Source of the DNA: Clostridia bacterium
Lineage (GTDB): Bacteria; Bacillota; Clostridia; Christensenellales; QALW01
Direction of reading: 5' to 3'
NCBI GenBank assembly: GCA_045600705.1
Contig: JAZRYL010000042.1
Location: 45,507 to 109,506, forward strand
Length of the DNA stretch: 64,000 nucleotides
Numbering within the stretch: position 1 is the stretch's first letter; each line of letters opens with the position of its first letter. This document shows, in pieces, positions 1,858 through 20,768 of this stretch. The notes under the pieces were generated by a model. It made no database searches. It was not told the origin of the DNA and saw only the letters and a list, made by a program, of their open reading frames with translations. The position numbers were made by a program, and so were the translations under genes.

Positions 1858-3534
1858 TCAGAACAGACCGATTATTTTGCCGTTTTCGTCCACGTCGATT
1901 TTTTCTGCGGCGGGAACTTTCGGCAGACCGGGCATAGTCATAATATCGCCGGTAAGAACAACAACGAAGCCTGCACCTGCGGACACCTTAACATTCTTGA
2001 CCGTAACGGTAAAGTCTTCGGGCGCACCTATTTTTGTTGGGTCATCGGAAAAACTGTACTGAGTTTTCGCAATGCAAACGGGGCAATTTGAGAAACCGAG
2101 TTTTTCAAGCTGTTCGATTTGCTTTTTGGCATTGGGTAAAACGTTTATACCGCTTCCGCCGTAAACTTTTTTAACAACTGCTTCGATTTTCTCGGTAATT
2201 GACATTTCGTCGGTGTAGGAGAATGTGAAATCTCCCTTTTCTTCTTCGCAAAGGCGAACGACTTCACGGGCAAGAGCCTCGCCGCCTTTTCCGCCGTCAG
2301 CCCAAACTGTCGAAAGAACGGTGTTTACACCAAGTTCACGGCACTTCTTGATAATGAAATCAATTTCGGCATCCGTATCGGTGGGGAAGCGGTTTACCGC
2401 AACTACGCAGGGAAGCTTATATACGTTTTTAATGTTCGAAACGTGGCGCAAAAGGTTGGGAATACCCTTTTCAAGGGCAGAAAGGTCTTCTGTTCCCAAC
2501 TGCTTTTTGTCAAGTCCGCCGTGCATTTTAAGCGCACGGACGGTGGCAACCATAACTACCGCATCGGGGACAAGTCCTGCCATACGGCACTTGATATCAA
2601 GGAATTTTTCGGCACCTAAATCTGCACCGAAGCCTGCTTCGGTAACGGTGTAATCGCCCATTTTAAGCGCCATCTGCGTCGCCATAACCGAGTTACAGCC
2701 GTGAGCAATGTTGGCAAAAGGTCCGCCGTGAACAAATGCAGGAGTTCCCTCTAAGGTCTGAACAAGGTTCGGCTTGAGCGCATCTTTAAGAAGTGCGGTC
2801 ATAGCACCCTGTGCGTGTAAATCGCCTGCGGTGACCGGCTTGTCGTCATAAGTGTACGCAACGATGATTCTTGCAAGGCGCTCTTTTAAGTCGGAAATCG
2901 ACGTGGCAAGGCAGAATACCGCCATTATTTCGCTTGCAACGGTAATATCGAAGCCGTCTTCACGGGGCGTTCCGTTTACTTTTCCGCCGAGACCGTCCAC
3001 AACAAAACGAAGTTGACGGTCGTTCATATCAACACAGCGCTTCCAGGTTATTTTTTTAACGTCTATTCCGAGAGCGTTGCCCTGCTGAATATGATTGTCA
3101 AGCATTGCGGCAAGCAGGTTGTTAGCGGCACCGATTGCGTGGAAATCTCCCGTGAAATGAAGATTTATGTCTTCCATGGGAACGACCTGGGCATATCCGC
3201 CACCTGCCGCACCGCCCTTTATTCCGAATACGGGACCAAGCGACGGCTCACGAAGCGCAACGGTAACATCCTTGCCGATTCTTGCAAGGCCGTCCGCAAG
3301 ACCGATGGTGGTGGTCGTTTTGCCTTCGCCTGCCGGTGTGGGCGTAATTGCGGTTACAAGAATAAGTTTGCCGTTTGCTTTATCTGTATCCGAAAGCAGA
3401 GCAGGGTCAATTTTCGCCTTGTAATTGCCATACTGCTCAAGATATTTTTCGTCAACGTGCGCTCTCTTTGCAATTTCCGTAATGTGCTTCGGTTTGCATT
3501 GCTGAGCTATTTCAATATCTGATAAATATGCCAT
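1858..3534 (-). CDS. fhs: Formate--tetrahydrofolate ligase (formyl-THF synthetase).
   Basis: The 558-aa product has the FTHFS N-terminus [11 protein letters not shown]...YGNYKAKID and the P-loop [11 protein letters not shown], and is collinear with FTHFS along its full length. Confidence 0.93.
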
Positions 3535-4599: not shown

Positions 4600-4860
4600 C
4601 TGTTACCGCAAAGCGAAATAAAAGTTCTTTTGCTTACTTTTCTTACAAAATGAATTTATTGTCAAAGAGTTGTACCTGTTATTATAATCTGCCGAGGGGT
4701 TTTTGAGAAAAGATTGAACTGTTACCGCAAAGCGAGGTAAAAGTTCTTTTGCTTACTTTTCTTACAAGAAAAGTAAGGAAGCAGTTCTTTTTGTTTCCTT
4801 TTCTTTCAAGAAAAGGAAAGAAACCGTTTTCTTTCCCAAAAGAAAAGTATGGTAATCAAT
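4600..4860. repeat. Cluster of palindromic intergenic repeat units (REP/MITE-like family). Other copies lie at 970-1035, 42290-42430 and 42660-42830.
   Basis: Repeated modules of the form ccgcaaagcgRRnnaagttcttttgcttacttttcttacaagaaaagtaag, with the imperfect palindrome CTTTTCTT-N-AAGAAAAG. The copy at 970-1035 matches at more than 85% in reverse orientation. Confidence 0.7.
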
Positions 4861-6040
4861 GGTGGAACAGACGCATACCGGTAAATGCCATTGCCATACC
4901 GTACTTATCGGCACATTCGATAACAAGGTCGTCACGAATAGAGCCGCCCGGCTCGGCAATATATTTTACACCGCTTCGATTTGCACGTTCGATGTTGTCG
5001 CTGAAGGGGAAGAATGCGTCAGAACCGAGAGCAACACCGTCAAAGGAATCAAGATACAACCTTATTTCCTCACTTGTAAGCGGTTCGGGGCGACGGGTAA
5101 AGTATTTCTGCCATATTCCGTTGGCGCAAACGTCTTCCTCGTTTTTGTTAATGTAGCCGTCAATAACGTTGTCACGGTCGGGACGTCCGAGAGTAGGCAG
5201 GAAAGGAAGTTGAAGAACTTTTTCGTGCATACGCAGGAACCATGTATCAGCCTTGCTTCCCGCAAGACGGGTGCAGTGAATTCGTGACTGCTGACCTGCG
5301 CCGACGCCGATAGCCTGACCGTCGTAAGCGTAGCACACGGAATTCGACTGAGTATATTTAAGAACAATAAGCGAAATTATCAAGTCACGAACGGCACTTT
5401 CGGGCAAAGACCTGTTTTCCGTCACAATGTTGGAAAGCAGTTCACGACCGATTTTGAAATTGTTTCTGCCCTGCTCAAAGGTGATTCCGAAAACCTGCTT
5501 GCGTTCCACAGGTTCGGGAACGTAGTTTTCGTCAATTTTAACAATATTGTAGTTGCCCTTGCGCTTGGTTTTAAGAATTTCAAGTGCTTCGTCGGTGTAT
5601 CCGGGTGCAATTATTCCGTCGGAAACCTCTCGCTTGAGCATAAGCGCAGTAGTCTTGTCACAAACGTCCGAAAGTGCCACCCAGTCGCCGAACGAACACA
5701 TACGGTCGGTGCCTCTTGCACGGGCATAAGCGCAGGCAATGGGGGAGTCGTCAAGACCTTCCACATCGTCAACAAAGCACGCTTTTTTCAGTTTTTCGGG
5801 AAGTTTTATTCCCACCGCCGCAGAAGTAGGACTAACATGCTTGAATGATGCCGCCGCAGGCAAATTAAGTGCTTCTTTAAGTTCTTTTACAAGCTGCCAC
5901 GAGTTGAACGCATCTAAAAAATTGATATATCCCGGCTTTCCGCACAGAATTTCAATGGGAAGGTCACTTCCGTCCTGCATAAAGATTCTTGACGGCTTTT
6001 GATTGGGATTGCAGCCGTATTTAAGTTCAAATTCGTTCAT
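4856..6040 (-). CDS. purH: AICAR transformylase (PurH C-terminal AICARFT domain only). It lacks the MGS-like IMP cyclohydrolase domain.
   Basis: The 394-aa product has an LKYGCNPNQ motif (compare LRYGENPHQ) and a C-terminus ...AFTGMRLFHH typical of PurH (RHFRH tail). Confidence 0.8.
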   Translation of the reverse strand: MNEFELKYGCNPNQKPSRIFMQDGSDLPIEILCGKPGYINFLDAFNSWQLVKELKEALNLPAAASFKHVSPTSAAVGIKLPEKLKKACFVDDVEGLDDSPIACAYARARGTDRMCSFGDWVALSDVCDKTTALMLKREVSDGIIAPGYTDEALEILKTKRKGNYNIVKIDENYVPEPVERKQVFGITFEQGRNNFKIGRELLSNIVTENRSLPESAVRDLIISLIVLKYTQSNSVCYAYDGQAIGVGAGQQSRIHCTRLAGSKADTWFLRMHEKVLQLPFLPTLGRPDRDNVIDGYINKNEEDVCANGIWQKYFTRRPEPLTSEEIRLYLDSFDGVALGSDAFFPFSDNIERANRSGVKYIAEPGGSIRDDLVIECADKYGMAMAFTGMRLFHH

Positions 6041-6049
6041 ATTTTCACC

Positions 6050-6769
6050 TCATTTATTGGAATTTATCAGTCGGTTTTCTTCTTTTCCGCTTTCAAGGTC
6101 GGTGTAACGAACATAAAGCGAAATTCGGTTGTCGCGGTCAAGTGCATTCCATAACAAATCGGTAAAGTCGTCGATACTGTCGGGAATAGCCACACGTTCC
6201 GGCTCGCCCACAAAGGTGGGAAGGGGATTTCCGTCGCAAACGTAGGTATGAATAAAATGCCCGAGTCCGTTTATCGGCGCATAGGAAAAAGTAAATCTGT
6301 TGCACGCAGAACCGTTTTCGTCGGCACTTTTGAGAATACTCATTTCGTATGTGAAGTTATTTTCGGAAAAATCAAGTATTCCGCTTATTCTCGGAGTAAA
6401 ATTCGGGGCGTCGGGTTCAAATTCCCGTGAAACAAGTGAAGATGCAAAGGATTTTCCGCTTTTAATTCCCTCAAAAACCGTGTCGGTTTGATCACCGTTT
6501 GTCACTATCAGTTTGTTCCCGATTTTCTTTTGCGCAGGATAGATAATAAGGCTCGGATCTTCAACCTTGGATGCATCAAAAGGCTGAGTGTAAAGCACAC
6601 CGTCCTTTTCAACAAAAATGCGGTTGCGGCTGTTGGCACTTCTGCCCATAATAAAATACGCCGAAACGGCACTTTTTCCGTTCTGCGACTTGCCGATAAC
6701 GATGCCTCGCCCAACGTAACTGTTGTTGCGTATAAGTTCGCCGATGTTGTGAATTTCGTAAACGTTCAT
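6050..6769 (-). CDS. purO: PurO-type (archaeal-type) IMP cyclohydrolase.
   Basis: The listed ORF starts at 6943 but is better trimmed to the internal ATG at 6767-6769, which is preceded by aaaggaga and gives MNVYEIHNIGELI.... The start at 6943 would run through the riboswitch and its terminator. The family was assigned by recognition of PurO-like sequence. Confidence 0.6.
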   Translation of the reverse strand: MNVYEIHNIGELIRNNSYVGRGIVIGKSQNGKSAVSAYFIMGRSANSRNRIFVEKDGVLYTQPFDASKVEDPSLIIYPAQKKIGNKLIVTNGDQTDTVFEGIKSGKSFASSLVSREFEPDAPNFTPRISGILDFSENNFTYEMSILKSADENGSACNRFTFSYAPINGLGHFIHTYVCDGNPLPTFVGEPERVAIPDSIDDFTDLLWNALDRDNRISLYVRYTDLESGKEENRLINSNK

Positions 6770-6788
6770 ATTCTTTCTCCTTTTTTTT

Positions 6789-6952
6789 GAAAAATAAAAG
6801 GGCACAGATTTACATTGGCGTGACTTTAAGAATGTTACGCTAACGTAAAACTGTGCCCAGACGGTCGGCATATAAGGTTCCCGCTCCCATGCAGTTGCCT
6901 GCTTTGCGAATTTTTTTCGCATTTCCGTCAGTAACGGGGACACATAAAGAAT
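6789..6952 (-). ncRNA. ZTP (pfl-motif) riboswitch with a terminator expression platform, upstream of purO-purH.
   Basis: The minus-strand RNA reads GUCCCCGUUACUGACGGAAAU, then a P2 hairpin GCGAAaaaaaUUCGC, then CAUGGGAGCGGGAAC, a linker, and the conserved 3' pseudoknot strand CCGACCGUCUGGGCAC. The GGGCACAG...CUGUGCCC hairpin plus U-tract overlaps the pseudoknot strand. The genomic context (purH, fhs) is classic for ZTP. Confidence 0.6.
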
Positions 6953-7069: not shown

Positions 7070-9451
7070 TTATTTTTTCAAAAACGCATCAAGTTTTTCA
7101 AACTGTAATTCCGCTTTCTGCTTTTCAAAGGGCAGAACAAAGGGCGTCAAAGATTCAAGCACATCGCAAAATCCCGATGACTTGTAATTTTCCATTTGAG
7201 TAAATTCCACGGTGGACAGGTTGTAACCGAGGTCATCAAGAATGTGTCTTATTTTTGCGTTGTAAACCATCGGAAGCACTTTTTTGCCCATGTTAAGTCC
7301 GAGAATAACGGAATGAAGTCGTGTACCGATAATGTATTCCGACTGCGCAAGAACTTCAAGCACTTGGTCTTTCGTTTGGAACGAATAGCCCAACACATCG
7401 GTTTTTTCACGTTCGGAGTCGGACAATTCGGCTAAAATTCTGTCGATAAACGAGTTGTCACCCTCAAAAGAACAAAAACTGATAATGCTTGTTTTTCTGC
7501 CCGCCGCCACGGAAGTTTTAACGGTATTAACGAGGGCTTGCAGATATGCGGAAGCGTCGCTCTCGCTGATTTTTCTTGAAGGCAGGAAGGGGTCACACAC
7601 GGAAATGGCAAGACTGCCCGGAATTTCCGCTTTTTTCGGAATGTTGTAGGAGAACAAAAGGTCCGGAGCGCAGCGCACCTGCCTTAAATCCTTGAAAAGT
7701 TCCGCGGAATAGGTTTCACGGAAGCAGATGTCCTCGAATTTTTTGAACTGTTTTACCCACATCTGCTTGAATTCATCGGTTTCAAAGGTGCCGAAATTGC
7801 AGGAAACGGAGAAAAACGGCTTAAAAGGACGCTTTCTTCTTTTTCTGAGTTTGTAATCAAGCATATAGTCGCCGACCTGCTGATAAATCGAACCGCCCAA
7901 GTGCAGAGTTGCATCGCTTTTTGAGAGCAGGAAGTATTCAAACAGGTCACGGATACCGAACTTTTCGCCGAACTTGTTGAGTTTGGCAACAAAGCCGTCA
8001 CCGGCGTAGAAGAACTTTACGTTATCGAAACGGTTGGCAAAAGCGGAATAATCCCACCCGCAATAGAATATAAATAATGTGTCGGGGTAACGCTTAAGCA
8101 ATGTTTCAAAAAACAAATCATCACCTAAGTTCATGGCAAAGTAGCCGTAAAGCATAACGGTGCGCTTATATTTTCTGCCGTCCCTGCCACGGAGAAAAAG
8201 GAAGTGCTTTAAGTGCTTTATGGGCGAAAGAACCTTGCCGAACTTCGATTTAATACGAAAATCAAGAGTGCGGTGAAGCTGTGCGGTAACACTGTTCAGT
8301 TCGCCTAAGGTGCGGGACAGTTCGCCCGAAGTGCGTGAAAGTTCACCTTGAAGACGTGCAATTTCGTTATTTGCCGCATCTCGCTGAGTTTCGGCGATAG
8401 TGCGCAAATTTATTTGGTGAGTAAGGGTTGCGTTAAGTTCGTTTATTTCGGCAGCGTCGTACAGATATTTTGATGCCTCACGGTCGTAGAAGCCACGGAT
8501 ATCAAGACCGAATTTATCCCTTGCTATTTCAACATTGCGGTAATCTCTGAAAAGTTCGGAAAATTTCAAAATTCCGAGAATGCTGTTTTCCGGCATAAAA
8601 ATGAGTCCCTTTTCCAAAAGAAACGCTTTTTCAATTTCCGTTTCCGCATGGGTGTGTTCGCCCTTTAAGCGAAGTCTGTCGGAGAATGCTTCAAGAAACA
8701 GACCGTCGGGACAGTCGTTTATCATCGAATATATGATTTGCGCATATTCCACGTTGTGAACGTTCGTCTTTTTTTCGTTAAGTCCGCTGTTGTGAGTTTC
8801 AAGGGAACTTATACGGTATTTTGCCATAGGCTTTTCAAAAAGTTTTATGGGGTGCTTTATTACAAGCCGTGCCCAGTAATCGAAATCGTGAAGATAACAG
8901 TATGAGGGATAGTGAGGCCCTAATTCGTCAACGGCGGATTTGCGCATTACCGTTCCCGCATAGGAAAGATGGTTCGATGCATCGAAGAACAAACGGACAA
9001 AATCTGCTTGGGTTTCGGCGGAAACGTCAAAAACGTCCTCAAGCCACTTGTAACTTTCACCGGCAGGAGTTCCGTCTTCATTGACGATTACGGGCTTGAA
9101 AAAGCAGGCGGCACATTCGGGAACACCGTTAAGATAATTTACGGCGGTTTCGATAAGTTCCGGGTCCATAAGGTCGTCCGAATCTATGTGAGCGATAAAT
9201 TCTCCCCGTGCGTGGCTGAACGCCTCGTTGTTGGCATTTGAAATGTGACCGTTGCGGGGGAGTTCGTAAAGTTCTATGCGCCGGTCGGGGAAAGACTTTA
9301 CAATTTCGGCCGTGTTGTCGGCAGAACAGTCGTCCACCACGATGACCTGAAGATTAGTGTACGTCTGACCGCAAACCGATTTAAGGGTTTCACTGATAGT
9401 TTTTGATGCGTTGTACGCATTGATACATACGCTTACTAACTGTTCGTTCAT
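7070..9451 (-). CDS. Bifunctional polysaccharide-modifying enzyme with an N-terminal GT2 glycosyltransferase domain and a C-terminal polysaccharide pyruvyl transferase (CsaB/WcaK-like) domain.
   Basis: N-terminus VSVCINAYNASKTISETLKSV...VVDDCSADNT...DSDD (GT2 DxD), a central coiled coil with GELSRT repeats, and a C-terminus ...LHLGGSIYQ...RLHSVILGL typical of PS_pyruv_trans. Confidence 0.65.
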   Translation of the reverse strand: MNEQLVSVCINAYNASKTISETLKSVCGQTYTNLQVIVVDDCSADNTAEIVKSFPDRRIELYELPRNGHISNANNEAFSHARGEFIAHIDSDDLMDPELIETAVNYLNGVPECAACFFKPVIVNEDGTPAGESYKWLEDVFDVSAETQADFVRLFFDASNHLSYAGTVMRKSAVDELGPHYPSYCYLHDFDYWARLVIKHPIKLFEKPMAKYRISSLETHNSGLNEKKTNVHNVEYAQIIYSMINDCPDGLFLEAFSDRLRLKGEHTHAETEIEKAFLLEKGLIFMPENSILGILKFSELFRDYRNVEIARDKFGLDIRGFYDREASKYLYDAAEINELNATLTHQINLRTIAETQRDAANNEIARLQGELSRTSGELSRTLGELNSVTAQLHRTLDFRIKSKFGKVLSPIKHLKHFLFLRGRDGRKYKRTVMLYGYFAMNLGDDLFFETLLKRYPDTLFIFYCGWDYSAFANRFDNVKFFYAGDGFVAKLNKFGEKFGIRDLFEYFLLSKSDATLHLGGSIYQQVGDYMLDYKLRKRRKRPFKPFFSVSCNFGTFETDEFKQMWVKQFKKFEDICFRETYSAELFKDLRQVRCAPDLLFSYNIPKKAEIPGSLAISVCDPFLPSRKISESDASAYLQALVNTVKTSVAAGRKTSIISFCSFEGDNSFIDRILAELSDSEREKTDVLGYSFQTKDQVLEVLAQSEYIIGTRLHSVILGLNMGKKVLPMVYNAKIRHILDDLGYNLSTVEFTQMENYKSSGFCDVLESLTPFVLPFEKQKAELQFEKLDAFLKK

Positions 9452-9944
9452 AAATACCTCTCAATCATATACTGTTATGACAGTAAATATAATACCATAC
9501 ATTATATTATATGTAAACATCGTAGTGAAAAAAATATTTTTGTAACATTTTTTACTGCTTGGAACATATATATAGTATGGATGAACAGAAAAATGAATAT
9601 ATATTCACTATATACGCATTTTTTTGAAGACGTGCGGAACGAAAAACGAAAAAATTTTTAAAAAAAGTGTTTGACATAAAATGTACTATAGATATAATAT
9701 GTATATGTAGCTTGAATGCATCGTATTTGGTACGGAAAAGCATTTTTGTGATATAAGCGTATTCCGAAAAAAACGCTTCCACGATTTGCCAAAAACCCCG
9801 ATAAATAGGGCATTATGAACAAATTGTGAACAAAAAATATCTAAATTATTTACAAAAAAATAATTTGAATATTTTTTCAAAAAAATCGAAAAAAATGCTT
9901 GACAAGTATAAAAAACGATGATACAATTCAGGTACAAAATTTAA

Positions 9945-10072
9945 GAACATTGCCAAACCCGTGGAAACATGGGGACGGAAAGCTCAGGAGTCTAAAGCAT
10001 AATATGCAATGACAGTCCGGTTGCAAAATAAAGATTTTTTGCACGGGCTGCTTTTTTATTGCCCGTGGAGAG
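9945..10072 (+). ncRNA. Candidate c-di-GMP-I (GEMM) riboswitch in the 5' leader of the gene at 10082.
   Basis: UUGCCAAACC, then a CCCGUG-GAAA-CAUGGG GNRA hairpin, then GGGACGGAAAGCU, then a hairpin containing UCUAAAGC. This matches the GEMM-I signature (GGCAAACC...GNRA...GGGACGCAAAGCC...CCUAAA), followed by the stable hairpin cacgggc...gcccgtg just before the RBS. Confidence 0.55.
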
Positions 10073-10081
10073 GAGACCATT

Positions 10082-11275
10082 ATGAAAAAATTTGTATCTT
10101 TATTTCTTGCCTTAACGATGTTCGTAGCAGTATTCGCAACATTAGGTTTGACAGTAGGCGCTACTTCGGAAATTCAGTATTCCGATCACATGCAGGGCGC
10201 AACCCGTTATGAAATCACAGACAGCTCCATTGCTTGGGTTAAACAGGCAACCGGCGCTCTTATCTGGGTATACGGCGACGACACTCGCACAAAAGCAGAA
10301 ATCGTTGCTCAGGCTAAAAACGCAGACCCCTCACTTAAGAATGCTTGCAACGCATTTGAAGTTTTGAGAGGCGTTGGTATTAAGTACACACCCAATGCAA
10401 ACGGTTCAAAAACTAAGGTTACAGTTGCTGAAGAAGACGGAAAACTTTATATGATTCTCGGCGGAAACTACAGCCACTTCGTAAAAGGTGACGGCGGCAA
10501 AGCAGTTGCTCCCACACCTGTTCCTACAGCAGTTCCCACAGCAGCTCCTACAGCAGCTCCCACTGCTACACCTGCTCCCGGTACCACAGCAGAACCTACA
10601 GCAGTTCCCACTGCTACACCTGCTCCCACAGCAGCTCCCGTAGTTCCTGAAACTCCCGCTACCGGCGAAACAATCAACATCAGAATCGATACCGCTAAGA
10701 AAATGGCAGTTAGATTTGAAGACGGTAACGTTTATTACAACGGCGACCTTAAGGAAATCGAAATCGGTAAAGAATATCTTTTCCAGATCTGCTCAGTAAA
10801 CTGGGAAAACGGCATCTACGACGATGAAGGCAACGGCCTTTGCGGTACAGTTGTTTACAGAATGAAAGTCGTTCATGAAAAAGAATTCAAGACCATCAGA
10901 GAAATCGCTCTTCAGAACCCCGAAAGATACACCGTTAAGGGTATGGATATCATCGATAACCTTAACAAAGTAATCATCATTAACTGCGACGCTGAAAACT
11001 TCCATCTTGAAACAGACGTTAACAACTTCTTCATGGCTTATCGCTTCCACTTTGAAAAGGGCGACTACAACAAGCAGACCGGTATCAAGAACGTTGTTAA
11101 TCCTACCGAAAGCCTTTCGGTAAACCTTCCTCTTGGAACAACAGTTACTGCTGATGCTTATGCAAAGTTCTCAAAGATTGCTTCTGCTGCTATCCTTGTT
11201 GAAAACAACAACGGCACAGGCGTTTATGAAAACGTATATCTTACAAGCGTAAACGATTATACTTGGAACTACTAA
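10082..11275 (+). CDS. Secreted protein with a Pro/Thr/Ala-rich linker. Function unknown; possibly surface-associated or an adhesin.
   Basis: Signal peptide MKKFVSLFLALTMFVAVFATLG; a PT-rich low-complexity linker (APTPVPTAVPTAAPTAAPTATPAP...); RBS ggagag upstream. Confidence 0.6.
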   Translation: MKKFVSLFLALTMFVAVFATLGLTVGATSEIQYSDHMQGATRYEITDSSIAWVKQATGALIWVYGDDTRTKAEIVAQAKNADPSLKNACNAFEVLRGVGIKYTPNANGSKTKVTVAEEDGKLYMILGGNYSHFVKGDGGKAVAPTPVPTAVPTAAPTAAPTATPAPGTTAEPTAVPTATPAPTAAPVVPETPATGETINIRIDTAKKMAVRFEDGNVYYNGDLKEIEIGKEYLFQICSVNWENGIYDDEGNGLCGTVVYRMKVVHEKEFKTIREIALQNPERYTVKGMDIIDNLNKVIIINCDAENFHLETDVNNFFMAYRFHFEKGDYNKQTGIKNVVNPTESLSVNLPLGTTVTADAYAKFSKIASAAILVENNNGTGVYENVYLTSVNDYTWNY

Positions 11276-11348: not shown

Positions 11349-11394
11349 GGCCACACAGGTACACAGTTCTTGTGTGCCTGTGGCTGATTTTTTT
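11349..11394 (+). terminator. Rho-independent terminator.
   Basis: Stem ggccacacaggtacac...gtgtgcctgtggc followed by tttttttt. Confidence 0.65.
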
Positions 11395-11482
11395 CACCGA
11401 ATAAAATCAGAATATTACAGTTGTGTTACACAACGTGAAAAAACATAAAAATTAACGTATTTTATTGAAATGTGGTGCTTTT

Positions 11483-13024
11483 ATGGACGGATTTAAGAAA
11501 TCACTTTTTGGCGGATATAAAAAGAAAGCCGTTGATAACGCTATGAACGAAATCAACGAAAAACTTAAAGATTGCCAGAACGACAACATATATCTTAAAA
11601 GAACTTCCGAGGAGTCTATTTCGAGAGCAACCGAACTTGAAAAGAAACTTCAGGAGTTAAGCGCAGAGAATATCAGACTTCAAAGCGAAACCGACAAGTT
11701 CAAAAATGAGCAGGAATGGTACAAAATCGAAACCGAAAGAGCCCGTAACGAACAGAATGCCATTAGGTCCGAAAAGGAAAGATTCGTTCAGGAACGTGAG
11801 AAATTTGCTCAGGAATTGGAACTTTGCAGACAGGAATTGCAGAACAACAAGCAAGAACTTGCCAAAGCAAAGCAGGACCTTGCACAGGCAAAGCAGGAAC
11901 AGTATTCACGTCCTGCTGAGCGTTCCGAAAACGTGGACGTATATAAGAATATTGAAAAGATTTACAGACGTGCTTACGGTACCGGCCACGAAATCGTTGC
12001 AGAGTCAAAAGAAGTTGCTCAGGAAATGCTCACAAAGGTTGATGAACGTTTCGATAAGACTATGGGCGACTCCACACAGATTGTAAACGATTACCAGGCA
12101 ATTTATGAGGACCTTGAAAAGCTTATTACCGCACTTTCGGCAGATATTTCCTGCGTGCAGAAAAATGCTGATGTGGTAATGAAAAAGGCACAGACGTTCT
12201 TGGGTGTTTATGACGAACTCGGAAGCGTTGTAAAAGCCGCTAAAACAAAGAACGAGGATATGCTTGCAATTTACGAATCGGATATCTCCGAATTTGTTGA
12301 CAGTTGTGCCGTTCAGGCAAAACTTCAGAGCCAGACAGAAACATCCGATTCAACACAGAACGAAGCTGAAAAGCCCGTTGAAACAGTTGAAGCATTTGCC
12401 GAGCAGACCTTGAACGTTGCCGAAAACAATGCTGAAACGGCTCCCGAATCATTTGAACAGAGCAATTTCAGAGTAATTCCGGCACATATTCCGTACGAAA
12501 GCGAACCCGTTCGCCGTGCGGATACCGAATTTAACAATACTCCCGCTTATGCGACAAACGTAAACAATGCACCCGTATATACCGCACATGCAACACCTGT
12601 TTACAGTGCGCCTGCATACACAACGCCGGTAAATAATGCGCCTGCATACGCAGTACCCGCAGCACCGGCAAATAATACACCTGCATACACTGCACCCGCA
12701 ACGCCGGTAAATAATGCGCCTGCTTATACCGAAAATGCTGATTCCACCGTTAATACGGCAGAAAATGTAGCGGCAAATGCGGCAGTAATCAATGCGGTAC
12801 GCATGGCAGTTGCCGATAACAACACACAGGAATCACCTGCACAGAGCGCGGCAGATACCGCTGCACAGAGCGCAGCACCTGCAAATCAGCCGGCTTCTCA
12901 GCCGAGCGCAAACAACAATGCCCGCAGTACTGACTTTACACAGTTCGGCAGAAAGAGCCGTGTTTCCTCAGAGGAACGCAGTGAACTGCTCAGAAAGGCA
13001 CTGCTTAAAAACGGCGGCAGGTAA
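11483..13024 (+). CDS. DivIVA-domain coiled-coil protein with a C-terminal Ala/Pro/Thr/Tyr-rich low-complexity tail.
   Basis: N-terminus MDGFKKSLFGGYKKKAVDNAMNEI matches the DivIVA N-terminal motif. A long heptad-rich coiled coil follows (ELEKKLQELSAENIRLQ...), then degenerate 'NAPAYT/ATPV' repeats. The ORF could also start at 11465. Confidence 0.55.
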   Translation: MDGFKKSLFGGYKKKAVDNAMNEINEKLKDCQNDNIYLKRTSEESISRATELEKKLQELSAENIRLQSETDKFKNEQEWYKIETERARNEQNAIRSEKERFVQEREKFAQELELCRQELQNNKQELAKAKQDLAQAKQEQYSRPAERSENVDVYKNIEKIYRRAYGTGHEIVAESKEVAQEMLTKVDERFDKTMGDSTQIVNDYQAIYEDLEKLITALSADISCVQKNADVVMKKAQTFLGVYDELGSVVKAAKTKNEDMLAIYESDISEFVDSCAVQAKLQSQTETSDSTQNEAEKPVETVEAFAEQTLNVAENNAETAPESFEQSNFRVIPAHIPYESEPVRRADTEFNNTPAYATNVNNAPVYTAHATPVYSAPAYTTPVNNAPAYAVPAAPANNTPAYTAPATPVNNAPAYTENADSTVNTAENVAANAAVINAVRMAVADNNTQESPAQSAADTAAQSAAPANQPASQPSANNNARSTDFTQFGRKSRVSSEERSELLRKALLKNGGR

Positions 13025-13047
13025 TAAAAAAGCCGTTTTTCAAAAAA

Positions 13048-13167
13048 AGTAAAAAGGCAAAACACGTGAAAGCGTGTGACGCAAAGTTGTGAATCTAAAA
13101 CCGAAAGGTCATGATAGTCAAACTGCACTAATAAAGGGTTACTATACTTTATTTGTGCAGTTTTTTC
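13048..13167 (+). ncRNA. Candidate c-di-GMP-I (GEMM) riboswitch with an intrinsic terminator, upstream of the operon that starts at 13203.
   Basis: GGCAAAAC, then an ACACGU-GAAA-GCGUGU GNRA hairpin, then GACGCAAAGUU, then a hairpin with AUCUAAAACC. This is followed by the terminator ctgcac...gtgcag plus tttttt at 13123-13167. Confidence 0.55.
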
Positions 13168-13202: not shown

Positions 13203-13874
13203 ATGGAAAAAGCAAAACTGTTTTTTCAAAAGGCATTCAAAAGAACAAAAGCAATCGGATTGGTATTGGTGCTTGTGATGCTTACGGGAATGCTTTGTTC
13301 GTGTAACAATGTAAATCCCAATGTCGGCACCGATAAAGAAGAAACGAACAAAAACAATTACACTTCGTCCACATCAAAGGTTGATAAATCGGTTCCGGAA
13401 TATGTCAACGGCGACGACCTTGCCAACCGCAGTTACGAATTAAGTTTTTTGCTTGCGCAAAAGAAGTTCAATTCGCCCAATGAAATAGGTGTAAATGCAC
13501 TTGTACAGTATTCGTTCTGTCACCTTTACTACGATAATTTGATTGAAATTCCCACCAACGGAACTCAGTTGAGAACGGCTACCGTGGATGAAATGGCGGA
13601 TGAAATCAAAAAGGAATTCGGTGACGTTACCACGGATATAAAGACTTCCGATTTGTACAACGGAGCGAAAAACTGCTTCGAAATGTGGGAACCGCCCTAC
13701 GGCAGAGATATTTACTACGATGTTGAAGTATCGGGACAGGGAAACGACACATACAAAGCGAACACAACGTTCTATACGGATTCAACAAAAGAAGAAATTC
13801 TCGGAAGAACGATTTTAACGGTTAAAGACGTAAATCAAAAAATGGTAATACAAAGATTAACATCAAGTAATTAA
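13203..13874 (+). CDS. Putative secreted protein or lipoprotein of unknown function.
   Basis: N-terminus MEKAKLFFQKAFKRTKAIGLVLVLVMLTGMLCSC with Cys shortly after the hydrophobic segment. It is the first gene downstream of riboswitch candidate #2. Confidence 0.5.
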   Translation: MEKAKLFFQKAFKRTKAIGLVLVLVMLTGMLCSCNNVNPNVGTDKEETNKNNYTSSTSKVDKSVPEYVNGDDLANRSYELSFLLAQKKFNSPNEIGVNALVQYSFCHLYYDNLIEIPTNGTQLRTATVDEMADEIKKEFGDVTTDIKTSDLYNGAKNCFEMWEPPYGRDIYYDVEVSGQGNDTYKANTTFYTDSTKEEILGRTILTVKDVNQKMVIQRLTSSN

Positions 13875-14102: not shown

Positions 14103-16334
14103 ATGAATAATGACGGACAGTTTTTGCAAAAATTAAAAGAATTCGGAAGCAAAATCAAAAAACAGGGCGACACTCTGATTTATTTTGAACTTGCGGTAGT
14201 TTTGACGGTAATAATCGTTGCCGTAAACTATATGTTCCAATATACCGAGAATAAGATTTCAAACGCCAAATCGATAAAAGCGTGGGAATACGTTTACACC
14301 GACAGTGAAGACGAAAAATTCAACGGCGATTTGAGAAATGCCAATAACCTTGTTCCTATGGAAAAGGAAAAGCTTGGCTCCTATCTTCACGTTAAAGCGA
14401 AAATCGATGCGTCAGACAATGACAGAACACTTATCGTTAATACGGACTATGCACCGATCAAAATAATTTTGAACGGCAAGGAAAGATACAATAACTACTA
14501 CGGAAAAGCAGATTACGTGGGAAATTCGTACAATGCGATAAAAATTCCCGCTTCCTCTTCACCTACGGAAATACGTATTTCGGCACGTCTTCCGTTCTCC
14601 ACTACGTTCACTATGCAGACGGTGGAGGGTGTGGCTCACCCCGACTTTTCGGTGGATGTACACATTATTTTTTCGGCGGTTGTAATCCTGCTTAGCATCG
14701 GATTTTTCGTATTTTCCGCAGTTATTAAGTCCGTTAAGCATAAAAAAATTAAATTTATCGCCGTGTTTGCGGCAATACTTGTTTACGGCATCGCTACGGC
14801 AGCTAAAGCGCTGACGCAGGATACCTATTACGTAAATATGCCGAATTTCTATAACATTTCAGTGGCACTTGAAAACGTAAGTTTGGCTATTATTATGTTC
14901 ATTTCGGCACGGCTTGTTTCAATGAAAAATAAGACTGTTTATGTGCTAATATTCGTCGATATTCTTGCAGCCGCGGCAACCTGCATCTTCACAAACCTGT
15001 GGATAGCAAGAATTTCGTTCATCGCTTCGGATATTCTTATACTGGGCACGCTTCTTTTGATGGTAAAAGAAAACTATCCTATGCTTGACAGACGTGTTCA
15101 GTACGCCAAAATCACATATCTTATGCTTCTTGCTTCGGTGATGATCCATGTTCTCTGCGGTATTATGATGAATACCGTGAGACTCAGAGTAACTTATTAT
15201 TACTGCCAGAATATTATGATGGTCGTATTCCTGTGCTATAACGTATTCGCTCAGATTGAAAAGACCATTGAATTCACCAATCCGGAAGAAATACAGCAAA
15301 AAATCAATCAGTACAATCTGTTTGTTGAAAAAGTTGCCGAACTGATTAAGAATATCATGGCGGTTAATACGGAAAACGAAATCTGCCGTGAGGCTTGCGA
15401 AGGTATTAGTTCTCTTTGCCATGAGATGGGCAAGTTCGATGATGAAAATGAACTGACCGTTACCGCTTTAATTAAGGAAAACGGCGAGTACAGTACCATG
15501 TACAGTATCGGTAATCCCGGAACAATAAACCCCTTTGTTGTGGAAAACCGCTGTCTTCTTGAAGAAAAGTTCTGCATTTATAACGAAACTTACTTCGATA
15601 TGGTTTTCGTTACAGAAAATGACTTCCATATTATTGTTCACGTTGAAAACGTCAAGGACGGACTTGATAATTTCTTCATCAGCATTATGGACACGATTTT
15701 CAGTTGCGTTCGTGCAAAATACATTCGTATGACAGAAGAAGACGTTGACTGCATTGATGCAGATATGCAAATATTCGTAGACCTTGCCGAAAACTGTGAA
15801 AGCGGTACGGCGGACAACAACGAACACCTCGGATCCGTTTGCTTCTATACCAAAACGATTATGGAACAAATGGGTTATCCCGAAGAAATTTGCGAAATCG
15901 TTTCAAAAGCCGCAATGCTTCACGATATCGGAAAAATCGCAATTCCTTTGGAAATCGGCTCAAAGGGCGCTCTGCTTAACGAGGAGGAGCGCACCATTAT
16001 GAAAAAACACACCGACTTCGGATATTCACTTTTGTCGGTGTTCGACAGTGACTTCCTTATGGTCGCTTCCATGATTGCAAAGCACCACCACGAAAAGTAT
16101 GACGGAACCGGCTATGCGGGCATCAAGGGCGAGGATATCAACGAATTCGCACGTATCGTATCCGTTTCCGACGTTATGGACGCACTTATGGCAAAGCGTT
16201 CGTATAAAGACCCGTGGCCCTTTGAAAAGGTTATGGATTATATTAAAGCAGGTTCGGGCAAAATGTTCGACCCCAAGGTAGTAGAAGCAACTCTTGCCTG
16301 CACGGAGATATTCAGAAGTAACACAGAAAAATAA
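14103..16334 (+). CDS. 7TM-receptor (7TMR-DISM-like) membrane sensor with a C-terminal HD-GYP domain; a c-di-GMP phosphodiesterase candidate.
   Basis: One N-terminal TM, an extracytoplasmic domain of about 150 aa, then about 7 TM helices, a cytoplasmic linker, and an HD-GYP domain (HDIGKIAIP ... KHHHEKYDGTGYAG, a GYA variant of GYP). Confidence 0.65.
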   Translation: MNNDGQFLQKLKEFGSKIKKQGDTLIYFELAVVLTVIIVAVNYMFQYTENKISNAKSIKAWEYVYTDSEDEKFNGDLRNANNLVPMEKEKLGSYLHVKAKIDASDNDRTLIVNTDYAPIKIILNGKERYNNYYGKADYVGNSYNAIKIPASSSPTEIRISARLPFSTTFTMQTVEGVAHPDFSVDVHIIFSAVVILLSIGFFVFSAVIKSVKHKKIKFIAVFAAILVYGIATAAKALTQDTYYVNMPNFYNISVALENVSLAIIMFISARLVSMKNKTVYVLIFVDILAAAATCIFTNLWIARISFIASDILILGTLLLMVKENYPMLDRRVQYAKITYLMLLASVMIHVLCGIMMNTVRLRVTYYYCQNIMMVVFLCYNVFAQIEKTIEFTNPEEIQQKINQYNLFVEKVAELIKNIMAVNTENEICREACEGISSLCHEMGKFDDENELTVTALIKENGEYSTMYSIGNPGTINPFVVENRCLLEEKFCIYNETYFDMVFVTENDFHIIVHVENVKDGLDNFFISIMDTIFSCVRAKYIRMTEEDVDCIDADMQIFVDLAENCESGTADNNEHLGSVCFYTKTIMEQMGYPEEICEIVSKAAMLHDIGKIAIPLEIGSKGALLNEEERTIMKKHTDFGYSLLSVFDSDFLMVASMIAKHHHEKYDGTGYAGIKGEDINEFARIVSVSDVMDALMAKRSYKDPWPFEKVMDYIKAGSGKMFDPKVVEATLACTEIFRSNTEK

Positions 16335-16353: not shown

Positions 16354-19300
16354 TTGATAATGGATGAAAATTTGAATGGCAATCAGCCGGAATTCACCGC
16401 TTCGACGGACGAAAACGGCGTTGCACCGATAAATGAGCAGACCGCTGAAGGTTTTTCTGCTGAGAACGAGCAGACCGCAGAAGGTCTTTCCGCCGATGGC
16501 GAGCAGGTAGCCGAAAACGGTGTTCCTGCCGATGGCGAACAGGCAGCAAACGGCGTCAATCTTGCGGGAATGCAGGAAAACACCTCCGACCAGGTTGCGT
16601 TCAATCCGGAAGCGGAGCAGGAAAAGAAAACCGAAGATAAGGTGGCAAATGCCAAAAAGCATAAAAAGACCAAGTGGTTTTTTATAATTCCCTTGATATT
16701 TCTTATTCTTATTTCGTTACTGTTCATCATTTGGCAGATAAGTCCCAAAAAGGGTATGAACGTATGCGTTCTTGACAAAACAATACTGACCGTTGAGGAA
16801 AACAACGATATCAATATTGATTCTGTTTACAGAAAGCATCAAGGACTGTTCTGGCTGCTTGAACAGCAGAAGTACGTTTTCCAGAACGGTGACTTCTATG
16901 ATACAAAGCAGGACTATTTCGGACCTATTCTTGACGAAGAAGGTCAGATAAAAGAGGAAAGAGCCCTTAAAGACCTTGATTATGAGCCGGATTTGATGTA
17001 TGTTTCCGACGTGTACGGCGCAGTAAACGACACCTACGGCTATTACGACAAGAACGACGCCAAAAATGCGGGTGTAACTGTCGATGAAATGTCGGTTATT
17101 TCCTACGCATACGAGAGCAATGCCACAATCGTTGCGGAAATGGAACTTTTCAATTCCAACTTGAACAGTTCAATCCACTCTCAGCTTGCGAGTCTTTGCG
17201 GCGTTAAGCCCACCGGCTGGGTAGGAAGATACATTTACGATTTGCAGGATTTCACCGACGTTCCCGACTGGGCTCCTCCCATGTACGAACAGCAGGAAGG
17301 TGTTGAGTGGCAGTTCTCAGGCCCCGGAATTTTGCTTGTTTCCGATGAAAAAATCATCATTCTTGAGCAGAAAACCGACTTTGAATCACGAAATCTTTTG
17401 CAGATTTTCATAACAGACGAATACAAAAAAGAATTTAAGCACTGTGACCGTGTTAATTTCTATAACTGGTTCGAAATCGTAGAGCCGGTGGGAAATACTG
17501 AGGTTATTGCAAACTTTGAATTCGATGTAAACGCAACCGGTATGGAAAAACTTAAAGGCGTGCTCAGGTCGCCTGTATTCTGTGCCGCAACACGCAAGGT
17601 AAGTACGGGAAAGGCTCCCGTTTACTACTTTGCCGCCGACTTTAACGATTACGTTTCGCATCTTAACTACAACAGATTTATGTTTGCAAACACGGTTTAC
17701 AGATGGATAGCATTTGACCGTCAGGGCGATATTACCAACTTCTATTGGAACTTCTATGACCCGCTGATGACGAAAATTCTTTCCTATGTGAACACCCGTG
17801 AAATTATCAAAAATCCCGACGAAAACGCCGCTAATGTTGACAGAACAACGCATTTCAGCGTAAGCGACAACGGATTCAGAATAAAGGGCGAAGACGATTG
17901 GGAAAAAATATCGTTTAATGCGGTAAGCATAAACGCCCACGAACCGGGCAAGAGTACCTATTCACGAAATTACGGTTTTTACGAAAACCTTGTCCGTGAA
18001 ACGGTTACAATGGGTGCGAACTGTATTTACGCAAAGGATATTCTTCCGCCCGAGTTTTACCGTGCAATATACGCAAACAATTCTTCCGAAAAAGCAAAAA
18101 AGGTGTACTTGATACAAAACATCACTCCTCCGGACGAAATTTCTCAGGAGGAATGGCAGAAAAAAGCGGAAGCGGCAGTTAATGTTCTTAACGGAAAAGG
18201 CTCTTATTCCATCGGAAACACCGACGACGCAATAAGATACTTCATTGACACTTCCAACTTCGTTGCGGCGATAACCTTCGACGGCTTCGACCCGCAGCAG
18301 CAACTTTCATATAGCGGTGAGTTCGCTTCCGGCGAAGGTCAGACCGGCTATCCTGCGTTTATTTACGATACTATTCAAAAGTACGCCAAGGACGAATTCG
18401 ATATGCAGGTTCCCATCGGAATAAATCTTCCGGCAGGGCTTGTTAAGGGAACCGGACTTGAGGGCGAAAACGCAATAAGCATCAGCGATATTATCACTGA
18501 CAGCGAATGTAAAAACAATTATTCCTTTACGGTTATTTCATATAAGGACACTAACGGACTTGTTACCGAGCAGGGCGAAAAAATCACTACTGACGGTGAC
18601 AAAATGGGTGGCGCATTCGCACTTTTCCGTGAGGCCACAAACGGACGCTATATGGTAAATAACATCGTGTTCTCGGCAAATTGCGGAACGGGTAACGACG
18701 ATAAAGTAACCGAAAAGCAACAAGGTCAGCAGACGGTTGCCGCATTAAGAATGGCAAAGGGCTCCGGCGCACTGTGTGCGATTGCTTCCGACCTTAACGA
18801 CGACTGGTCGGAACTTTCCGATAGTATGTATGCGTTCACATCGCCTTTGGAAAACAACAGTATGTGGCAGAACGTGGCAGACCCTGCACAGACAACGGGC
18901 TTTATCGCACTCGACCCCGAAGAACCCGAAAAAGTCGGAATAAATATGACCGATGACGACCGTGTGCAGATGCTTTCACTGTCGTCCAACGAAGGATATT
19001 TCTATCTGACCGCACAGTTGCTTACGGATATTGACTACGAAAAAGAAAAACTGTTTATCGGTATCGACACATATCAGCGAAACGACGGTGAATACTACTA
19101 TTCAAAGGAATATACACCTACATCGCTTTCCGGAATGGAATTCGTGCTTGCCTTTGACAGTAAACAGCAGGCAGGGTTGTACGTTACTTCAACATACGAC
19201 AAAAAAGCGGGAAGATATGCTACAAAAGAAAGTTATACCGGTGATTACGGTCTTGTTTCGCAACTGACCTACGGCGGTTTCTCCTCGGTTGACAATCAGT

Positions 19301-20732: not shown

Positions 20733-20768
20733 AGTATGATTCCACAATCATGGAAAGAATAGGTAACT

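What the first reader, a model, noticed from the sequence alone, without database searches (positions are those of the whole stretch)
9945..11275. Second candidate c-di-GMP-I riboswitch controlling a secreted PT-linker protein
The 630-bp AT-rich leader upstream of the 10082 gene contains a GEMM-like sequence: GCCAAACC, a GNRA hairpin, GGGACGGAAAGC, and a UCUAAAGC hairpin. A strong hairpin follows, abutting the RBS. Known clostridial GEMM riboswitches often control adhesins and surface proteins. The downstream product is a secreted protein with a Pro/Thr/Ala linker and no recognisable domain.
Basis: partly seen in the sequence, partly recalled or inferred. Interest (0 to 1): 0.6.

Follow-up and report, generated by a model that had tools for sequence, protein, structure and literature searches.

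The report
c-di-GMP ON riboswitch gating adhesin-like gene
This is a genuine but ordinary class I c-di-GMP riboswitch that most likely turns on a secreted surface protein when c-di-GMP is high; the less ordinary part is that the protein belongs to a small, uncharacterised rumen-bacterial family in which almost every gene carries the same switch.

Summary
Window 9942-10028(+) matches Rfam RF01051 (c-di-GMP-I) at 69.9 bits against a gathering score of 35. All 19 orthologous leaders with enough upstream sequence also carry the aptamer.

Two details need correcting. The transcribed leader is about 150 nt, not 630, because a near-consensus promoter sits at 9899-9927. The hairpin next to the RBS (10042-10067) is not the regulatory terminator. 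The terminator is 10013-10050 plus a U-run; its 5' arm is the aptamer's own 3' strand, so a ligand-bound aptamer excludes it. This predicts a transcriptional ON switch, like Bc2 RNA of Bacillus thuringiensis. Both competing helices are conserved, with a compensatory change.

The gene (10082-11275) encodes a signal peptide, a 110-aa N-domain with no known fold, a Pro/Thr/Ala linker and a ~205-aa C-terminal module. That module is absent from Pfam, NCBIfam and the PDB and matches only 60 clusters among 1.84 billion representatives. It sits at the C-terminus of proteins with varied adhesin-type heads. In the fetched loci, 54 of 57 testable genes carrying it have a c-di-GMP-I aptamer.

Verdict: a new member of a known riboswitch kind, with a modestly interesting uncharacterised regulon.

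The parts
9899..9927 (+). Sigma-70-type promoter TTGACA-17-TACAAT with TG extension; predicted TSS near 9934
   Evidence: 11/12 match. An equivalent promoter of at least 10/12 lies 8-50 nt upstream of the distal-most aptamer in 18 of 20 orthologous leaders. TSS position is inferred.
9942..10028 (+). c-di-GMP-I (GEMM-I) aptamer. P2 hairpin with GAAA tetraloop 9958-9973; P3 hairpin 9981-10022 with a receptor-like CUAAAG/AAUGA motif. Inferred ligand-contact equivalents are G9952, A9979 and C10024.
   Evidence: RF01051, 69.9 bits vs gathering score 35. Aptamer helices are 83-100 % paired per helix across 20 orthologues, with changes on both sides in 6 aptamer pairs. G9952, A9979 and C10024 lie in invariant columns. 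The mapping to Vc2 G20/A47/C92 (PMC4744006) is my inference from the Rfam alignment.
10013..10060 (+). Intrinsic terminator: CAGUCCG-GU-UGCAAAA / loop / UUUUGCA-CGGGCUG (10013-10050), then CUUUUUUAUU (10051-10060). Its 5' arm (10013-10028) is the aptamer's P3 3' strand and the ligand-contact region.
   Evidence: It is the MFE and centroid structure of the leader. The hairpin alone is -16.6 kcal/mol. It is 97.7 % paired over 13 pairs in 20 orthologues, against 31-41 % for slid controls. The same design occurs in 67 of 72 family aptamers against 152 of 720 shuffles.
10042..10067 (+). Alternative (ligand-state) hairpin CACGGGC / 12-nt loop holding the U-run / GCCCGUG. It uses the terminator's 3' arm, so it excludes the terminator.
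   Evidence: It forms when the aptamer is enforced (-12.1 kcal/mol alone). It is 92.9 % paired in 20 orthologues, with a compensatory GC(10)/AU(8) at alignment columns 111:129. Its role after the termination decision is inferred.
10071..10075 (+). Shine-Dalgarno AGGAG, 6 nt before the ATG
   Evidence: Read from the sequence. Predicted accessibility is 0.44 in the ligand state and 0.60 in the terminator state, so there is no support for translational control in this window.
10082..11275 (+). CDS of 397 aa: signal peptide (residues 1-27), N-domain (about 29-140; nt 10166-10501), Pro/Thr/Ala linker (about 141-190; nt 10502-10651), C-terminal module (191-397; nt 10652-11272)
   Evidence: ORF. The AF2 model has both domains at pLDDT around 90 or more and the linker below 50. 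The N-domain alone gives pLDDT 93.3. 273 homologues were found. No Pfam, NCBIfam or PDB family matches.
11354..11392 (+). Intrinsic terminator ending the monocistronic unit
   Evidence: 13-pair stem followed by GCTGATTTTT.

Best explanation
A strong constitutive promoter (9899-9927) starts a leader of about 150 nt whose first 87 nt fold into a class I c-di-GMP aptamer. At low c-di-GMP, the aptamer's 3' strand (CAGUCCGGUUGCAAAA, 10013-10028) is captured by UUUUGCACGGGCUG (10037-10050). This forms a 14-pair terminator followed by CUUUUUUAUU, and transcription stops before the gene. At high c-di-GMP, the bound aptamer holds that strand, including the inferred ligand-contact C10024. The terminator cannot nucleate and RNA polymerase reads through. 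The freed 3' arm then pairs with GCCCGUG (10061-10067), and the Shine-Dalgarno sequence stays open. The switch is therefore a transcriptional ON switch working by repression and de-repression. Its product is a Sec-secreted two-domain protein. The variable N-terminal 'head' is carried on a flexible Pro/Thr/Ala stalk by a conserved C-terminal module. I infer that this module attaches the protein non-covalently to the cell surface or matrix, so that high c-di-GMP puts an adhesin-like protein on the surface. Shown here: aptamer identity, its conservation, the mutually exclusive helices, and the linkage between the gene family and the aptamer. Inferred: ligand binding, ON polarity in vivo, the TSS, and the protein's function.
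For: Aptamer: RF01051 at 69.9 bits vs gathering score 35, kept as the best family of clan CL00126. It is present in 19 of 19 testable orthologous leaders. Aptamer helices are 83-100 % paired per helix; over the aptamer plus the ligand-state hairpin, 96 % of cells pair and 8 pairs change on both sides, a value no shuffle in 500 reached.
Terminator: it overlaps the aptamer and is the MFE and centroid fold. It is -16.6 kcal/mol alone, and the aptamer-enforced and free folds are nearly isoenergetic (-38.2 vs -39.8), so ligand binding energy could tip the balance. It is 97.7 % paired in 20 leaders against 31-41 % for slid controls.
Two-state signature: alignment column 111 is G or A. Both pair with U79 in the terminator, and the change is compensated by C/U at column 129 in the alternative hairpin (GC 10, AU 8).
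Generality: 67 of 72 aptamers at these loci have the same design, against 21 % of shuffles.
Promoter: a match of at least 10/12 lies just upstream in 18 of 20 leaders.
Precedent: Bc2 RNA is a c-di-GMP-I ON switch using terminator/antiterminator structures and controls a collagen adhesion protein (PMC4933901).
Protein: the C-module is the last domain in nearly all of 60 representative clusters. It is fused through linkers to pAdhesive_15/choice-of-anchor A, Beta_helix_3, GBS104-like Ig, DUF7305 and List-Bact-repeat heads, never to enzymes. 54 of 57 testable C-module genes carry the aptamer.
Context: HD-GYP-type and REC-GGDEF-EAL genes lie in the window.
Confidence: 0.8

Rival explanations
1. 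Translational or dual control. The hairpin next to the RBS, or pairing of the U-run or the GCCCGUG element with the purine-rich SD, gates ribosome access, either instead of or in addition to termination.
For: The unconstrained MFE pairs CUUUUUUAU with GUGGAGAGG. In several orthologues (L009, L012, L013, L018, L014, L010) the UCCGU element can pair with ACGGAGG, and predicted SD accessibility is 0.5-0.8 in the ligand state against 0.2-0.4 in the terminator state (folds). Conservation of the post-terminator GYCCGUG element needs some explanation.
Against: In the window the SD is no more accessible in the ligand state (0.44) than in the terminator state (0.60). The 10042-10067 hairpin does not include the SD. 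The effect is absent or reversed in about half of the orthologues. The U-run/SD pairing is mostly G-U.
Confidence: 0.15
2. OFF switch. c-di-GMP binding promotes termination, as reported for the class I riboswitches of C. difficile.
For: [quoted passage not shown]
Against: The only hairpin followed by a U-run uses nucleotides 10013-10028, which are paired inside the folded aptamer, so the terminator and the bound aptamer cannot coexist. The other hairpin (10042-10067) is followed by GAGAGGAG rather than a U-run. Class I ON switches exist (Bc2, PMC4933901).
Confidence: 0.04
3. The aptamer senses a different ligand (3'3'-cGAMP, or the unknown ligand of a variant class), or it is a decayed, non-functional copy.
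For: Variant GEMM-I classes exist in the same Rfam clan. One paralogue leader (L033 846-931) scores best as RF03167, c-di-GMP-I-GGC.
Against: cmscan keeps RF01051 as the best model of clan CL00126 at 69.9 bits. The equivalents of Vc2 G20, A47 and C92 are G, A and C, and they are invariant in 20 orthologues (contact residues from PMC4744006). The aptamer and its platform are under clear purifying selection.
Confidence: 0.04

Closest known systems
Bc2 RNA, the c-di-GMP-I riboswitch upstream of cap (collagen adhesion protein) in Bacillus thuringiensis BMB171 (PMC4933901)
   Same: Class I aptamer. The intrinsic terminator lies immediately before the ORF. c-di-GMP binding favours read-through (ON, repression/de-repression). 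The target is a secreted adhesin-type protein. A strong promoter is combined with a default-off leader.
   Different: Bc2 is experimentally validated; this one is not. Cap is a collagen-binding, sortase-type adhesin, whereas this product has no LPXTG and no known domain. Here an additional conserved hairpin follows the U-run.
C. difficile c-di-GMP riboswitch regulon (class I OFF: flgB, PPEP-1; class II ON: CD2831, CD3246, pilA1) (PMC11477304)
   Same: A clostridial-type organism uses riboswitches as its main c-di-GMP effectors to switch on surface adhesins at high c-di-GMP. Several adhesin genes per genome are each individually gated.
   Different: In C. difficile the adhesin-inducing ON switches are class II and the class I ones are OFF. 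Here class I aptamers do the ON job. The C. difficile adhesins are covalently sortase-anchored.
Triple-tandem c-di-GMP riboswitch Bc3-5 of B. thuringiensis (PMC4759541) and tandem riboswitch architectures (PMC9481103)
   Same: Orthologous leaders of this gene in other MAGs carry 2-3 complete aptamer-plus-terminator units in series.
   Different: The window itself has a single unit. No degenerate second aptamer was detectable in 9452-9941, even at E up to 10.
Vc2 (Vibrio cholerae), the structural reference c-di-GMP-I aptamer
   Same: Same family model, GNRA tetraloop/receptor architecture and G/A/C ligand-contact identities.
   Different: A different expression platform. P1 here is very short and A-U rich.

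Membership tests
c-di-GMP-I riboswitch (Rfam RF01051, GEMM-I) | Covariance-model score at or above the curated gathering score, over the full model | tested here: met
   69.9 bits vs 35; model positions 1-87 of 87; E=1.2e-11 for the 64-kb window.
c-di-GMP-I riboswitch (Rfam RF01051, GEMM-I) | Two adjacent hairpins, with a GNRA tetraloop on the first and a receptor-type internal loop on the second, supported by covariation | tested here: met
   GAAA loop and the CUAAAG...AAUGA motif align to the consensus. In 20 orthologues the aptamer helices are 83-100 % paired and 6 aptamer pairs change on both sides. For the aptamer plus the downstream hairpin together, no shuffle in 500 reached the observed covariation.
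c-di-GMP-I riboswitch (Rfam RF01051, GEMM-I) | Ligand-contact nucleotides equivalent to Vc2 G20, A47 and C92 (PMC4744006) | tested here: met
   G9952, A9979 and C10024 are all in invariant alignment columns. The position mapping is my inference from the Rfam alignment, not a structural superposition.
c-di-GMP-I riboswitch (Rfam RF01051, GEMM-I) | Location in a 5' UTR, same strand as a downstream gene, with an expression platform | tested here: met
   Promoter 9899-9927, aptamer 9942-10028, terminator 10013-10060, SD 10071-10075, ATG 10082.
c-di-GMP-I riboswitch (Rfam RF01051, GEMM-I) | Specific, high-affinity binding of c-di-GMP with ligand-dependent gene control | not testable with these tools
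   Requires in-line probing or ITC and transcription or reporter assays.
Transcriptional ON switch of the Bc2 type | Terminator stem shares nucleotides with the ligand-stabilised aptamer, so the two are mutually exclusive | tested here: met
   Nucleotides 10013-10028 belong to both. The overlap is conserved in 20 of 20 orthologues and in 67 of 72 family aptamers against 21 % of shuffles.
Sortase-anchored (LPXTG) Gram-positive adhesins and pilins | C-terminal LPXTG-like motif followed by a hydrophobic segment and a basic tail | tested here: not met
Known non-covalent wall-binding or carbohydrate-binding modules (WxL, SLH, CWB2, LysM, SH3b, CBMs in Pfam) | Profile match to the family model | tested here: not met

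The most novel reading that the evidence does not exclude
The ~205-residue C-terminal module (window 10652-11272) is a previously undescribed, clade-restricted surface-anchoring or matrix-assembly domain of rumen Ruminococcus/Acutalibacteraceae. Each genome has several paralogues that present unrelated adhesive heads on this common module, and nearly every one is individually gated by one to three class I c-di-GMP ON riboswitches. If so, the riboswitch defines a complete, swappable adhesin repertoire, and the 110-residue N-domain of this particular member is a new fold with a new binding specificity.
Probability: 0.45. Interest if true: 0.5.

Novelty: new member of a known kind. Interest (0 to 1): 0.33.

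Why it matters
The riboswitch itself adds nothing new in kind; any Rfam-based annotation would flag it. Its value is as a label. It marks an uncharacterised, narrowly distributed family of secreted proteins as c-di-GMP-induced, and therefore probably part of the attached or biofilm lifestyle of fibre-degrading rumen Firmicutes, where adhesion mechanisms outside cellulosomes and type IV pili are poorly known. The near-universal linkage (54 of 57 genes) gives an unusually clean, testable regulon. The shared C-terminal module is a concrete candidate for a new anchoring domain. The family also shows class I aptamers used systematically as ON switches, sometimes in series of two or three. That contrasts with C. 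difficile, where class I is OFF and class II is ON.

Tried and rejected
1. Degenerate second aptamer. GCCAAAAACCCCGATAAATAGGG (about 9788-9810) lies at the spacing seen for tandem units in orthologues. A permissive cmscan of 9452-10100 at E up to 10 found no c-di-GMP match there, and the spacer is not conserved in related loci. Rejected.
2. A translational second layer in the window. SD accessibility does not rise in the ligand state. Not supported for the window; possible in some orthologues.
4. Foldseek against afdb50 was unavailable.
6. No other copy of either domain exists in this window (tblastn).
7. Literature searches for c-di-GMP riboswitches in Ruminococcus or the rumen found nothing specific.
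8. The OFF-switch and other-ligand readings were considered and rejected on structure (see rival explanations).

Full report
**1. Observation**

A scan of the whole window against Rfam 15 at gathering thresholds gives three matches:
- c-di-GMP-I (RF01051) at 9942-10028(+): 69.9 bits against a gathering score of 35, covering model positions 1-87 of 87.
- A second c-di-GMP-I at 13046-13130(+): 73.2 bits.
- A ZMP/ZTP riboswitch at 6848-6945(-).

The spacer between the divergent GT2/pyruvyl-transferase gene (7070-9451, minus strand) and the ATG at 10082 is 630 bp. A TTGACA-17-TACAAT promoter with a TG extension lies at 9899-9927, so the transcribed leader is about 150 nt. The rest of the spacer is not conserved in related loci. 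A promoter matching at least 10/12 lies 8-50 nt upstream of the distal-most aptamer in 18 of 20 orthologous leaders.

**2. Expression platform**

They pair the aptamer's own 3' strand, CAGUCCG-GU-UGCAAAA (from 10013), with UUUUGCA-CGGGCUG (to 10050). CUUUUUUAUU follows, which makes this an intrinsic terminator of -16.6 kcal/mol.

When the Rfam aptamer pairs are enforced, the terminator cannot form. Its 3' arm instead pairs with GCCCGUG (hairpin 10042-10067, -12.1 kcal/mol), with the U-run in the loop. The two global states are nearly isoenergetic (-38.2 vs -39.8 kcal/mol), so ligand binding energy could decide between them.

Nucleotides 10013-10028 are needed by both the folded aptamer and the terminator, so the bound aptamer and the terminator exclude each other. 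High c-di-GMP should therefore give read-through, which makes this an ON switch. The hairpin next to the RBS is followed by GAGAGGAG rather than a U-run, so it is not a terminator.

**3. Comparative test**

The protein has 273 detectable homologues. A pattern scan of one genome per GTDB species returned 52 loci, nearly all from rumen or gut MAGs of Ruminococcus, Acutalibacteraceae and Clostridia.

cmscan of these loci puts an RF01051 aptamer directly upstream of the gene in 19 of 19 full-length orthologues that have upstream sequence. Nine C-module genes have two or three aptamers in their leader. In most of these the repeat unit includes the terminator region.

In an alignment of 20 leaders (A2):

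| Helix | Cells paired | Comparison or variation |
|---|---|---|
| Terminator (13 pairs) | 97.7 % | 31-41 % for slid controls |
| Aptamer helices | 83-100 % per helix | 6 pairs change on both sides |
| Post-terminator hairpin | 92.9 % | GC(10)/AU(8) swap at columns 111:129 |

For the aptamer plus the post-terminator hairpin together, 96 % of cells pair, 8 pairs change on both sides, and no shuffle in 500 reached the observed covariation. Column 111 is also the partner of U79 in the terminator, where both G and A can pair. One substitution is thus tolerated in one helix and compensated in the other, as expected if both alternative structures are used.

Caveat: the sequences are related, so the number of independent events is unknown.

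A broader heuristic asked for a terminator of at least 8 pairs and at most -8 kcal/mol, with its 5' arm inside the last 22 nt of the aptamer and a T-run after it. It passes 67 of 72 aptamers at these loci, against 152 of 720 shuffled controls.

**4. Is there also translational control?**

With either state enforced, predicted SD accessibility in the window is 0.44 for the ligand state and 0.60 for the terminator state, so there is no support here. About half of the orthologues show the expected direction (0.5-0.8 vs 0.2-0.4), through pairing of the UCCGU element with ACGGAGG.

The conserved post-terminator element is therefore not fully explained. It is transcribed after the U-run, so it cannot influence the termination decision. 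It may lock the ON conformation, or it may act on translation or stability in some lineages.

**5. Ligand**

cmscan keeps RF01051 as the best model within its clan. The Vc2 ligand contacts are G20, A47 and C92 (PMC4744006). I map their equivalents to G9952, A9979 and C10024, all in invariant columns. The canonical G/A/C identities argue for c-di-GMP rather than a variant ligand. One paralogue leader, L033, instead scores as the GGC variant RF03167.

**6. The product**

The 397-aa protein has four parts: a Sec signal peptide, an N-domain (about residues 29-140), a disordered Pro/Thr/Ala linker, and a C-terminal module (191-397).

- AF2 models both domains confidently: overall pLDDT 80 with the domains around 90 or more, and 93.3 for the N-domain alone.
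- Pfam, NCBIfam and a PDB profile search find nothing.
- There is no LPXTG signal.

The C-module is 60-72 % identical in paralogues with quite different N-terminal parts: pAdhesive_15/choice-of-anchor A, Beta_helix_3, GBS104-like Ig, DUF7305 and List-Bact repeats. An exhaustive profile search of 1.84 billion representatives finds only 60 clusters, and in nearly all of them the module is at the extreme C-terminus.

Across the fetched loci, 54 of 57 testable C-module genes have a c-di-GMP-I aptamer in their leader.

I infer a modular surface-protein family with variable adhesive heads on a flexible stalk and a common C-terminal attachment module. The anchor role is inference from architecture. 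Binding to substrate or matrix polysaccharide is an equally open alternative.

**7. Context**

The order C-module gene, then a homologue of 13203-13874 (itself behind riboswitch #2 in this window), then an HD_5/HD-GYP-type protein (14103-16334) recurs in at least 11 loci. The window also encodes a REC-GGDEF-EAL protein (33031-34707) and a GT2 synthase cluster (19866-26559). This fits a c-di-GMP-controlled attachment neighbourhood.

**8. Comparison and verdict**

The closest characterised system is Bc2 RNA of B. thuringiensis: a class I ON switch using terminator/antiterminator structures in front of a collagen adhesion protein (PMC4933901). Tandem class I arrays are also known (PMC4759541). 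In C. difficile class I switches are OFF and adhesins are induced through class II (PMC11477304), so the systematic use of class I ON switches here is a lineage-specific variation rather than a new principle.

All computationally testable membership criteria for RF01051 are met; ligand binding is untested. The finding is confirmed as a new member of a known kind. The point of moderate interest is the uncharacterised protein family, and its C-terminal module, that the riboswitch marks out.

Noticed in passing
window 13046-13130 (+), with ORF 13203-13874 and ORF 14103-16334: A second c-di-GMP-I aptamer (73.2 bits) with the same ON design: terminator AAACUGCAC...GUGCAGUUU plus a U-run. It precedes a 223-aa lipoprotein-like protein with no family match, followed by a 743-aa HD_5/HD-GYP-type protein, a possible c-di-GMP phosphodiesterase and feedback loop. 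The order C-module gene, 13203 homologue, HD-GYP homologue is syntenic in at least 11 related loci.
   Followed up: partly
window 9671-9698 (+): A perfect 12/12 sigma-70 consensus promoter (TTGACA-16-TATAAT) about 230 nt upstream of the riboswitch promoter. No terminator, ORF or Rfam match lies between them, and the region is not conserved in related loci. It may be a second promoter feeding the same riboswitch, or a chance match in AT-rich DNA.
   Followed up: partly
L005 2230-2446; L007 1589-1804; L008 2209-2435; L010 650-1123; L011 1915-2437; L014 2145-2436; L015 1878-2436; L016 2144-2438; L023 1025-1305: Orthologous and paralogous leaders carry two or three c-di-GMP-I units in series. In most, each unit has its own terminator region. 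This resembles the Bc3-5 triple tandem and predicts a steeper, more digital ON response.
   Followed up: partly
L033 846-931: The aptamer upstream of a beta-helix/C-module paralogue scores best as the variant class RF03167, c-di-GMP-I-GGC (60.6 bits, gathering score 59), within a family otherwise using canonical RF01051.
   Followed up: no
window 6848-6945 (-): A ZMP/ZTP riboswitch (47.4 bits, gathering score 39) upstream of IMP-cyclohydrolase-like and AICARFT/IMPCHase genes (6050-6922, 4856-6040), with formate-tetrahydrofolate ligase nearby (1858-3534). This is the classic arrangement and is ordinary.
   Followed up: no
window 19866-26559 (+) and 16360-19623 (+): A cluster made of a HEAT-repeat protein, a GT2 processive-synthase-like protein (with a chitin-synthase/cellulose-synthase-like match) and two proteins of about 700 aa with no family match. 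It is preceded by a 1087-aa protein with no match. It may be an exopolysaccharide synthase operon next to the c-di-GMP-controlled genes.
   Followed up: no
window 33031-34707 (+): A response-regulator receiver plus a weak GGDEF match plus a strong EAL domain: a likely c-di-GMP phosphodiesterase under two-component control.
   Followed up: no
window 11465-13024 (+): A 519-aa protein lying between the two riboswitch units. It has a long N-terminal coiled coil and a C-terminal low-complexity region with repeated NNAPAYT/PVYSAPAYT motifs. It has no significant family match, but homologous segments occur near C-module genes in L019-L021.
   Followed up: no
L001 1865-1941 (-); L004 6-79 (+): A Gut-1 RNA (65.7 bits) just downstream of the orthologue in L001, and a group II intron domain at the edge of L004.
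   Followed up: no
L031 900-1172; L043 2555-3160; L047 1863-2453: These are the only three C-module genes with upstream sequence but no aptamer. They are short or partial ORFs (91-aa match, 298 aa, 193 aa) and may be fragments or pseudogenes.
   Followed up: no
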